Below, piece by piece: positions 11,301-12,681 of a DNA stretch of 64,000 nt. The stretch is from the human T2T-CHM13v2.0 reference genome, Homo sapiens. Where the stretch lies: assembly GCF_009914755.1 (NCBI RefSeq), contig NC_060928.1; one strand, written 5' to 3'. A program made the translations under genes and the position numbers. Positions within the stretch are counted from its first letter, which is position 1. Each line of letters starts with the position of its first letter. Below the pieces are notes generated by a model that had not been told where the DNA came from, did not search any database, and worked only from the letters and a program-made list of their open reading frames with translations.

Positions 11301-11839
11301 AATGCATATTAAAATAATATATATTGACCAAATTGTTTTTATGTAAGAAGAATATCTCAAATTATTTTAAAATTTAGCATTATTATTCACCATAATACAA
11401 AACTTTCAATGGTTGCTAAACAATGACTGGTAAAATTAAAAATCTGCTCAAAGATTAAAAAAAAAATCTCATGGCAAATTATGAATGATTGATAGTTTCA
11501 TTATATGAACAGATATTATCTACCAAAGTTTTAAGACAAATATTACTCTTCATGAAATGATGAAATATTATCTTTACATAAGGATCATTTTTCACCAGTA
11601 CTATTTAATACTCACCAGAGGTTCTAAATTCTGAGGTAAAAGAATATGAAATAAAAAGCATAAAAATTGGAAGGGAAGATAGAAACCTATTTATTCACAT
11701 GTATCAAATATATACTAAAAACACAAATGAATAAACACCGGTACTTGGACTTTAGAAGCACAGTTTGTTGTATAGGAGGTTTATATACAAATACATTTCT
11801 ATCTACCAACAATAAATTACTGCATTTTAAAAAAGATAG

Positions 11840-12180
11840 CAGCGTAGCACTCTACCAGTGCCAGGAGCTGGACACCTACCTGATACCCCAGATCCTCCAT
11901 AGCCACTACTGATTACAGCCAGCTGCAGGTACAGAGCCACGGGACCCCAAGAATGAGCTTACAAAGTGGCCTTTCCAGGCCCTGGGAGCTCCTCTCACTC
12001 ATCAGACCTTCCACTGCCCTGGCTACTAAATATTTTACGTACATCAGCCTGAAAAGGACTTCTGGCTATGCAAGAGTCCCTTAAAGATTTTCTGCTTCAA
12101 GTCTGTCTTTGAAATCTGCCATGAGCACAAAATTATGGTAATTTTTGACCTAAAAAGATTTTAAAACTATTTAAATACCA
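11840..12180 (+). pseudogene. BRCA1: Retroposed fragment of BRCA1 last exon (last ~23 codons, stop at 11910-11912, ~270 nt of 3'UTR)
   Basis: Translation [23 protein letters not shown] versus the human BRCA1 C-terminus [23 protein letters not shown]. Downstream GGACCCCAAGAATGAGCTTACAAAGTGGCCTTTCCAGGCCCTGGGAGCTCC matches the BRCA1 3'UTR as I recall it. TSD AAAAAAGATAGCA (11829-11841) / AAAAAAGACAGCA (12181-12193). The symbol names the parent gene, not a functional locus. Confidence 0.95.
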
Positions 12181-12681
12181 AAAAAAGACAGCATTGACAA
12201 TCACCATATTAAGTAGACAGAAATAAACTATATTCAAAGTTTTTGTAGGAGAATTATTACATTTTATTAAAACATGCTAAAAAATAGACAAACTTTGTTG
12301 TTCTTAGATTAAAAATGTCCGTATTTTAAAGATTTTTTAAAATATTTAATTTGATCTATGAATTCAGCACAATCCCAATTAGAATCCCAATGTTTTAAAA
12401 TATAATTTAAAACCAATGTCACATTAGTAGTAAAAATTGTACAGCAATAAGATCTAACATACTAGTGTACAAGTTGTTGAGAGAACCTACCCCATTAGGT
12501 ATCAGAGCTTATTAAAACCTATCACAACTATGGCAATGTGATTTATTGTAGATATAGAGTAATAGAAAATGACAAATTCAATCAATGCATATGTATAATC
12601 GTTATTAATGACAAGCATGAGTATTGCAGTTGAAGAAAACAAAGAATGGCCTATTCAATAATTTATGTATGAATAATTGTT

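What the first reader, a model, noticed from the sequence alone, without database searches (positions are those of the whole stretch)
11829..12193. BRCA1 last-exon retrofragment inside an old L1
Seen: the frame ending at 11912 reads [23 protein letters not shown]. The block is bracketed by a 13-bp TSD with one mismatch, at a TTTT/AAAAAA L1-endonuclease site, and the host L1 is collinear across it. Knowledge: this is the C-terminus of the second BRCT domain of BRCA1 (..IPQIPHSHY*), and the following ~270 nt match the BRCA1 proximal 3'UTR (about 90% by my recollection, not computed). Inference: an L1-mediated, heavily 5'-truncated BRCA1 retrocopy, distinct from the 5' duplication BRCA1P1. It could cross-react with BRCA1 last-exon PCR, capture or probes and give false variants such as the apparent Pro>Leu. 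I recall an old report of a short BRCA1 3' homology on 4q28 but cannot verify it, so this may not be new.
Basis: partly seen in the sequence, partly recalled or inferred. Interest (0 to 1): 0.8.

Follow-up and report, generated by a model that had tools for sequence, protein, structure and literature searches.

The report
BRCA1 last-exon fragment inside old L1
A 336-base copy of the end of the BRCA1 gene (last 23 codons plus the start of its 3' untranslated region) was pasted about 30 million years ago into a dead L1 element on chromosome 4; it is a real but ordinary, non-functional gene fragment with only a small nuisance potential for BRCA1 testing.

Summary
Window 11840-12175 (+) matches one other place in the genome, chr17 43903975-43904310 (-), at 314/336 (93.5%) with no gaps. 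That place is the last coding exon of BRCA1 (PDB matches).

- **Extent:** the copy starts 52 nt inside that exon and ends 263 nt into the 3'UTR. It holds no exon junction and no intron or flank homology.
- **Insertion signature:** it is bracketed by AAAAAAGA[T/C]AGCA (12/13) directly after TTTT. A repeat this good occurs at 11 of 19,675 random site pairs.
- **Host:** a decayed L1 ORF2 on the + strand, collinear across the insert. ORF2 aa 566-649 lie on the left and aa 685-736 on the right.
- **Age:** divergence is K2P 0.069, which suggests roughly 25-45 Myr.

An L1-endonuclease-type insertion is well supported, but classical poly(A)-primed retrocopying is inferred, not shown.

The cross-reaction risk is small. 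The longest exact shared blocks are 59 and 52 nt, and every 100-nt stretch has at least 5 mismatches. It is absent from the hub's RefSeq table for this window and from ten literature searches. Low interest.

The parts
11825..11828 (+). TTTT directly before the 5' copy of the target-site duplication. Together with the A-run it forms a TTTT/AAAAAA junction, which on the bottom strand reads T-run/AAAA: an L1-endonuclease-type nick site.
   Evidence: Sequence read. That this fits the L1 EN consensus (5'-TTTT/AA-3' on the nicked strand) is established knowledge, not a tool result.
11829..11841 (+). 5' copy of the target-site duplication, AAAAAAGATAGCA. Its last two bases (CA, 11840-11841) are also homologous to BRCA1, giving a 2-nt microhomology at the 5' junction.
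   Evidence: family D10 (12/13); the alignment starts at 11840; chance control, 11 of 19,675.
11841..11912 (+). Coding remnant: the last 23 codons of BRCA1 (end of the second BRCT domain) plus the TGA stop. There are 3 differences from BRCA1 in the 73 coding-derived nt (11840-11912), one of them non-synonymous (Pro to Leu).
   Evidence: (22/23 to PDB 1oqa_A residues 88-110).
11913..12175 (+). Copy of the first 263 nt of the BRCA1 3'UTR, with 19 differences in 263 nt.
12176..12180 (+). TACCA. BRCA1 has CGCCA at this point (3/5 identical). This is either the last 5 nt of the copy, with a decayed CpG, or filler. The final A is the only possible poly(A) remnant outside the TSD.
   Evidence: downstream comparison. 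Unresolved.
12181..12193 (+). 3' copy of the target-site duplication, AAAAAAGACAGCA.
   Evidence: family D10.
11592..11828 (+). Host, left of the insert: decayed L1 ORF2 (reverse-transcriptase region), matching aa 566-649 of a reference L1 ORF2 (L057).
   Evidence: SPVLFN = aa 566-571; window 11618-11722 = aa 575-612, E 0.002; FLSTNNK = aa 643-649; nhmmer 11590-11816, E 5.9e-8; paralogs L004-L007.
12194..12392 (+). Host, right of the insert: the same L1 ORF2 continues, with aa 685-736 at window 12249-12392. The ORF2 gap is 35 codons (105 nt); the window has 80 nt once the insert and one TSD copy are removed.
   Evidence: E 2e-5; paralogs L009, L007, L043 and L051 lie in ORF2 aa 660-748; 12351-12392, profile positions 609-650.

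Best explanation
Window 11840-12175/12180 is a dead, non-coding fragment derived from the BRCA1 last exon: its last 23 codons, the stop codon and the first roughly 263-268 nt of the 3'UTR. It was inserted in sense orientation into the reverse-transcriptase region of an already decayed L1 ORF2 on chromosome 4.

**Most likely mechanism: L1-driven target-primed reverse transcription.**
- L1 endonuclease nicked the bottom strand at the T-run/AAAA site.
- The exposed T-run primed reverse transcription of a BRCA1 transcript whose 3' end lay near 3'UTR nt 263-268. That transcript would be a weakly signalled proximal cleavage/polyadenylation product (TTTAAA at nt 248 and 258) or a truncated RNA.
- cDNA synthesis stopped after about 340 nt, which is the 5' truncation.
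- The 5' end was joined at a 2-nt CA microhomology.
- A staggered second-strand cut 13 nt away produced the target-site duplication.

**Shown:** the parent gene, the extent of the copy, the absence of intron or flank homology, the TSD, the EN-type site, the host L1 and its collinearity, and the divergence.

**Inferred:** the RNA intermediate, the nature of the RNA's 3' end, and the age. From K2P 0.069, the age is roughly 25-45 Myr, that is, the stem catarrhine to stem anthropoid period. No function is expected.
For: **Parent identity**
- 314/336 identical with no gaps, against a single chr17 locus.
- That locus has a ...tctccag acceptor followed by an exon whose 40-aa peptide is 40/40 identical to PDB 1oqa_A, 'Breast cancer type 1 susceptibility protein'.
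- All 19 PDB hits are BRCA1.

**Clean insertion**
- The TSD is 12/13. A repeat this good occurs at 11 of 19,675 random sites and at 6 of 6,796 AT-rich ones.
- The TSD abuts both ends of the homology.
- TTTT precedes an A-led TSD on the strand expected for a sense-oriented insert.
- A 2-nt microhomology sits at the 5' junction.

**Host collinearity**
- ORF2 aa 566-649 lie to the left and aa 685-736 to the right, on the same strand and in the same order.
- The spacing is 105 nt in ORF2 against 80 nt in the window.

**No homology beyond the exon segment**
- The next best HSP between 1.1 kb of the window and 3.3 kb of the BRCA1 locus has E 0.45 over 15 nt.
- The 30 nt upstream and 40 nt downstream do not align.

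**Age and 3' end**
- There are 16 transitions and 6 transversions, K2P 0.069. The 1/13 TSD mismatch is of the same order.
- TTTAAA at 3'UTR nt 248 lies 15-20 nt upstream of the copy's end. That spacing would suit a weak poly(A) signal. That TTTAAA is a minor signal variant is recalled, not tested.
Against: - **No poly(A) tail.** Seven A's follow the copy, and six of them belong to the TSD.
- **Wrong 3' end.** The copy ends about 1.1 kb upstream of the only AATAAA in the BRCA1 3'UTR, at nt 1356. No A-rich tract follows the breakpoint in BRCA1 that could explain internal priming.
- **No exon junction.** The copy has none, so an RNA intermediate is not demonstrated.
- **No support for a proximal site.** Neither the two searches that ran nor one search gave evidence for a proximal BRCA1 poly(A) site. 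Searches returned 0 papers, and the phrases used for the 3'UTR may not match how papers print it. Of the 42 papers I saw 15 listings; none is about BRCA1's own 3'UTR sites.
- **No filled/empty-site test.** Primate genomes were not available.
Confidence: 0.68

Rival explanations
1. An L1-endonuclease-made staggered break was repaired by end joining that captured a free BRCA1 fragment, either a short cDNA or a piece of genomic or extrachromosomal DNA. No poly(A)-primed reverse transcription took place at the site. Fill-in of the 13-nt stagger produced the duplication.
For: This explains the missing poly(A) tail and the arbitrary 3' end at UTR nt 263-268 while keeping the TSD and the EN-type site. 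The copy lies within one exon, so a DNA source cannot be excluded. A short microhomology at the 5' junction (CA) fits end joining.
Against: The insert is in the sense orientation with its 3' end against the A-run, as TPRT predicts. Capture would give this orientation only half the time. Such captured fragments are far rarer than L1-mediated retrocopies (general knowledge). No filler or second fragment is present, except possibly TACC.
Confidence: 0.2
2. A conventional retrocopy reaching the true BRCA1 mRNA 3' end and poly(A) tail was inserted. It later lost the distal 1.1 kb of UTR and the tail through one deletion.
For: This would reconcile the TSD and EN site with the atypical 3' end.
Against: The deletion would have to stop exactly at the first base of the 3' TSD copy. 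There is no repeat or microhomology in BRCA1 at nt 263-268 that would favour it.
Confidence: 0.06
3. A DNA-level segmental duplication or gene conversion from the BRCA1 locus, unrelated to L1 activity.
For: There is no exon junction in the copy, so the sequence alone does not show splicing.
Against: Homology starts 52 nt inside the exon and does not enter the intron 52 nt away or the distal UTR. The block is only 336 nt, lies on another chromosome, and has a 13-nt TSD at an EN-type site. No other shared sequence exists between the two loci.
Confidence: 0.04

Closest known systems
L1-mediated processed pseudogenes (retrocopies), 5'-truncated class
   Same: It is dispersed to another chromosome and inserted in sense orientation. 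It has a 13-nt TSD, a TTTT/A-run endonuclease-type site, 5' truncation and junction microhomology. PMC10415145 (passages read) describes processed pseudogenes as mRNA copies integrated by LINE1 reverse transcriptase. It also says L1-type insertions are mostly 5'-truncated but usually end at the 3' end.
   Different: It has no poly(A) tail, and its 3' end is not at the parent mRNA's known end: UTR nt 263 against AATAAA at nt 1356. It contains no exon junction, so splicing cannot be shown.
BRCA1P1, the partial BRCA1 pseudogene next to BRCA1 on 17q21 (recalled, not examined here)
   Same: Both are partial, non-functional copies of BRCA1 sequence.
   Different: From memory, BRCA1P1 is a DNA-level duplication of the 5' end (exons 1a, 1b, 2). 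The chr4 block copies only the last exon. The last-exon query found only itself and BRCA1 in the assembly, 2 of 2 candidates, so BRCA1P1 shares none of it.
Templated sequence insertions / captured cDNA or DNA patches at double-strand breaks (recalled class; the original papers were not retrieved)
   Same: It is a short (about 340 nt) piece of a distant transcribed region, without a poly(A) tail and with microhomology at a junction.
   Different: It has a clear 13-nt TSD at an L1-endonuclease-type site, which points to L1 involvement at least in making the break.

Membership tests
L1-mediated processed pseudogene (retrocopy) | Derived from spliced mRNA (introns absent across exon junctions) | not testable with these tools
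   The copy starts 52 nt inside the last exon and ends in the same exon, so it contains no junction. No data set could test this for the present sequence.
L1-mediated processed pseudogene (retrocopy) | Target-site duplication of about 7-20 bp flanking the insert | tested here: met
   13 nt, 12/13, abutting both ends. A match this good occurred at 11 of 19,675 random site pairs.
L1-mediated processed pseudogene (retrocopy) | Insertion at an L1 endonuclease consensus site (TTTT/AA on the nicked strand) | tested here: met
   TTTT|AAAAAAGATAGCA at 11825-11841, on the strand expected for a sense insert. The consensus itself is recalled knowledge.
L1-mediated processed pseudogene (retrocopy) | Poly(A) tail at the 3' end of the insert | tested here: not met
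   Only AAAAAAA follows the copy, and six of the seven A's are the TSD. A tail could have shrunk into this run, so absence at insertion time is not proven.
L1-mediated processed pseudogene (retrocopy) | 3' end coincides with a polyadenylation site of the parent mRNA | tested here: not met
   The copy ends at 3'UTR nt 263-268. The only AATAAA is at nt 1356, and only weak TTTAAA motifs lie at nt 248 and 258. Whether a minor site exists there could not be checked.
Segmental (DNA-level) duplication of the BRCA1 locus | Homology continues into intron or intergenic flank | tested here: not met
   There is no further HSP between 1.1 kb of the window and 3.3 kb around the BRCA1 exon; the best has E 0.45. 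The flanks do not align.
LINE-1 (host element) | Similarity to L1 ORF2 (endonuclease/reverse transcriptase protein), collinear over the region | tested here: met
   The reference ORF from L057 carries Exo_endo_phos_2 and RVT_1 and lies next to a Tnp_22_dsRBD ORF1. The window flanks match its aa 566-649 and aa 685-736 in order. A DNA profile of 4 paralogs gives E 5.9e-8 on the left flank. The subfamily was not named, because no repeat library was available.

The most novel reading that the evidence does not exclude
The fragment is a fossil of a BRCA1 transcript that ended about 265 nt after the stop codon in the germline of an anthropoid ancestor. That would be a short-3'UTR BRCA1 isoform, now lost or cryptic. 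Alternatively, it is a natural example of L1 machinery mobilising an mRNA fragment with little or no poly(A). In either case it also preserves ancestral states of the BRCA1 C-terminus and 3'UTR: three CpGs where human BRCA1 now has TpG or CpA.
Probability: 0.2. Interest if true: 0.35.

Novelty: new member of a known kind. Interest (0 to 1): 0.18.

Why it matters
The value is mostly practical and modest. BRCA1 is one of the most heavily sequenced human genes, and this is the only other place in the assembly that carries its last-exon sequence.

- **Shared exact blocks.** The two loci share exact blocks of 59 nt (11942-12000, 3'UTR) and 52 nt (11844-11895). By my recalled numbering of an 1863-aa protein, the 52-nt block covers codons Val1842-Ile1858.
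- **Assays at risk.** Very short reads (about 60 nt or less, for example cfDNA, ancient DNA or old 36-50-nt runs), hybridisation probes, or qPCR/ddPCR amplicons placed wholly in this 336-nt stretch could pick up chr4. They could then mimic three coding changes (one Pro to Leu, two synonymous) and 19 UTR changes.
- **Assays not at risk.** Reads of 100-150 nt carry 5-12 mismatches and should map uniquely.

For evolution, it is one more small pseudogenic fragment. Its only unusual trait is the missing poly(A) tail and the internal 3' end.

Tried and rejected
- **Pfam scan of the region.** I scanned all six frames of 9001-15002 with stops read as X: 0 families at E up to 1. A PDB phmmer of the X-read frame 10201-11400 gave 0 hits. 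The L1 is too decayed and frame-shifted for these, so I identified it through a reference L1 ORF2 taken from the same genome instead.
- **Pairwise search for paralogs of the immediate flanks.** Only 5 of 5 candidates (including self) were found for 11200-11841 and for 11500-11828, and 3 of 3 for 12194-12675. These hits turned out to be L1 ORF2 pieces. (12181-12820) was swamped by a different high-copy repeat at 12670-12930, with 993 first-look candidates of which 40 were scored.
- **Global alignments with very cheap gap extension.** I aligned four L1 paralogs to 11560-12460. They broke into 40-52 blocks and did not give one clean gap. I rejected them as over-fitted and draw no conclusion from them.
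- **Inverted repeats or a MITE-like host.** Nothing beyond short AT-rich matches.
- **Rfam on 11400-13000.** 0 matches at E up to 1.
- **Bacterial-type promoter/terminator scan.** 4 sites found against 6.0 expected. The scan is not meaningful for human DNA.
- **Pfam accession PF08333.** It is not in the library.
- **Literature.** All ten search slots were used. One further attempt was rejected for term syntax. I found no paper describing a BRCA1 fragment on chromosome 4/4q28 and none giving a proximal BRCA1 3'UTR poly(A) site. PMC2584115 (passages read) mentions BRCA1 only as the host of an RPL21 retrocopy-derived exon. The library omits most subscription-journal papers, so an old report may still exist.

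Full report
**1. What is in the sequence**

Reading 11500-12600 shows a GC-rich island in very AT-rich DNA. GC is 0.42-0.57 between 11775 and 12074, against 0.19-0.30 on either side. It belongs to an 82-aa stop-to-stop frame, 11664-11912, whose upstream part is unrelated.

**2. Parent locus**

I searched the window's own genome with 11829-12193. The search returned 2 candidates and both were scored:
- the window itself;
- G000:C17:43903975-43904310 on the minus strand, 93% identical over query 12-347, E 1.4e-141.

A sensitive blastn of window 11500-12600 against the 3.3-kb chr17 locus (L002) gave one alignment:
- window 11840-12175, 314/336 identical (93.45%), with no gap;
- the next best HSP is 15 nt with E 0.45.

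On the chr17 sense strand the matched segment lies in an exon. The exon begins after ...tctctgtctccag and ends in a TGA. Its 40-aa peptide is 40/40 identical to PDB 1oqa_A, 'Breast cancer type 1 susceptibility protein', and all 19 distinct PDB sequences hit are BRCA1. The window's 23-aa peptide hits the same 19 sequences and is 22/23 identical, with Leu for Pro. The parent is therefore the last coding exon of BRCA1.

**3. Extent of the copy**

- The copy starts 52 nt after the exon's first base.
- It contains 73 coding-derived nt, including the stop, and 263 nt of 3'UTR.
- Upstream of 11840 and downstream of 12175 the two loci do not align. The exception is a doubtful TACCA versus CGCCA (3/5) at 12176-12180.

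There is also no exon junction, so intron loss cannot be used as proof of an RNA intermediate.

**4. Insertion signature**

AAAAAAGATAGCA (11829-11841) and AAAAAAGACAGCA (12181-12193) are 12/13 identical (family D10). They abut both ends of the homology. The last two bases of the 5' copy (CA) are also BRCA1-homologous, a 2-nt junction microhomology.

As a control I took 19,675 random site pairs in the window with the same geometry. Of these, 11 had a direct repeat of 13 nt or more with at most 1 mismatch. Among 6,796 pairs with flank GC of 30% or less, 6 did.

The 5' copy is preceded by TTTT. The pre-insertion site was therefore TTTT|AAAAAAGAYAGCA. On the bottom strand this is a T-run/AAAA junction of the kind L1 endonuclease prefers (recalled consensus 5'-TTTT/AA-3'), and it is on the strand expected for a sense-oriented insert. 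Read in the opposite orientation, the site does not fit.

**5. Host element**

Direct Pfam and PDB searches of X-read frames found nothing. I therefore took a reference L1 from the same genome:
- a Tnp_22_dsRBD (L1 ORF1) hit led to the locus;
- I fetched 6.5 kb around it as L057;
- its 1177-aa open frame carries Exo_endo_phos_2, Exo_endo_phos and RVT_1.

With that ORF2 as query:

| Window position | Reference ORF2 (L057) | Evidence |
|---|---|---|
| 11592-11609 (SPVLFN) | aa 566-571 | |
| 11618-11722 | aa 575-612 | E 0.002, |
| FLSTNNK, ending at 11816 | aa 643-649 | |
| 12249-12392 | aa 685-736 | E 2e-5, |

The few genomic paralogs of the immediate flanks are themselves L1 ORF2 pieces at those same ORF2 positions. 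A DNA profile of four paralogous ORF2 segments aligns to 11590-11816 (profile positions 138-390, E 5.9e-8) and to 12351-12392 (positions 609-650, E 0.023).

Between aa 649 and aa 685 the reference has 105 nt. The window has 432 nt, which is 80 nt once the insert and one TSD copy (352 nt) are removed. More precisely, the target is the reverse-transcriptase region of a decayed ORF2.

A separate L1 piece lies upstream at 10127-11014. It matches reference nt 4053-4994, about aa 844-1157 (E 1.7e-25), and has dozens of dispersed relatives. ORF2 aa 1039-1138 reappear at 13588-13866.

**6. Divergence and age**

There are 22 differences: 16 transitions and 6 transversions, K2P 0.069. Three fall in the 73 coding-derived nt and 19 in the 263 UTR nt. 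The copy has 3 CpGs where BRCA1 has TpG or CpA, and BRCA1 has none in this stretch. These may be ancestral states that BRCA1 has since lost, but without outgroups this is inference.

Taking a catarrhine-lineage rate of about 1.0-1.2e-9 per site per year (recalled), with both copies drifting, gives about 30-35 Myr. Constraint on the parent would make the copy older. I give 25-45 Myr. The 1/13 TSD mismatch is compatible with this.

**7. What does not fit a textbook retrocopy**

- In the BRCA1 3'UTR the only AATAAA is at nt 1356, while the copy ends at nt 263-268.
- After the copy there are seven A's, six of which are the TSD. The poly(A) tail is therefore absent or has shrunk into that run.
- BRCA1 has no A-rich tract just after the breakpoint that could explain internal priming.
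- The only signal-like motifs nearby are TTTAAA at nt 248 and 258. The first is 15-20 nt upstream of the end.
- I found no paper on a proximal BRCA1 poly(A) site (for I saw 15 of 42 listings only).

My preferred reading (0.68) is TPRT on a BRCA1 RNA with a proximal or truncated 3' end. The rivals are:
- an L1-endonuclease break that captured a BRCA1 cDNA or DNA fragment by end joining (0.20);
- a later deletion of the distal UTR and tail (0.06);
- a DNA-level duplication (0.04).

**8. Practical claim**

The longest exact shared blocks are 59 nt (11942-12000), 52 nt (11844-11895), 36 nt and 36 nt. Zero-mismatch windows number 43 of 301 at 36 nt, 13 of 287 at 50 nt and 0 of 262 at 75 nt. Every 100-nt window has 5-9 mismatches and every 150-nt window 6-12.

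Standard reads should therefore separate the loci. Only very short reads, probes or amplicons wholly inside the block are at risk. The apparent Pro to Leu is one of three coding-part differences.

**9. Known or new**

The hub's RefSeq table lists no gene or pseudogene at this place. All ten literature search slots were used, and one more attempt failed on term syntax. None returned a paper describing a BRCA1-derived sequence on chromosome 4/4q28. One search, with six phrases such as 'BRCA1 retrocopy' and 'BRCA1P2', returned 0 papers. PMC2584115 mentions BRCA1 only as the host of an RPL21-derived exon (passages). PMC10415145 supplied the general description of L1-mediated processed pseudogenes (passages).

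The window does lie next to PCDH10-DT, which from memory is in 4q28.3.

I class the finding as an unannotated member of a very common kind (pseudogenic fragment, 5'-truncated retrocopy) with one slightly unusual trait. Interest is low.

Noticed in passing
window 12670-12930: A high-copy interspersed repeat of about 110-260 nt, roughly 80% identical to its copies. The first look found 993 candidates, of which 40 were scored. It sits inside, or next to, the host L1. The family was not determined because no repeat library was available.
   Followed up: partly
window 8969-9125 and 9889-10049: A direct repeat with a spacing of about 920 nt: 100 nt at 75% identity followed by 46 nt at 98% (45/46). 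It lies upstream of the L1 ORF2 C-terminal piece. It may be a local duplication or two copies of the same repeat. Not explained.
   Followed up: no
window 10127-11014 (and 13588-13866): A second L1 fragment, matching about aa 844-1157 of the reference ORF2, lies upstream of the host fragment (aa 566-736). ORF2 aa 1039-1138 reappear at 13588-13866. The region is therefore a nest or tandem of at least two old L1 pieces on the + strand.
   Followed up: partly
window 11843, 11941, 12038: The chr4 copy keeps CpG at three positions where human BRCA1 has TpG or CpA. BRCA1 has no CpG at all in the homologous 336 nt. These may be ancestral BRCA1 states preserved in the copy.
   Followed up: partly
L009 (G000:C16:79752412-79755620), positions 31-1272 and 1513-1777: In this paralogous locus the piece related to window 12240-12445 (77% identical) lies in the opposite orientation to an adjacent, much better preserved L1 ORF2 3' half. 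This could be an L1 inversion or two nested L1s. It misled me at first about collinearity in the window.
   Followed up: partly
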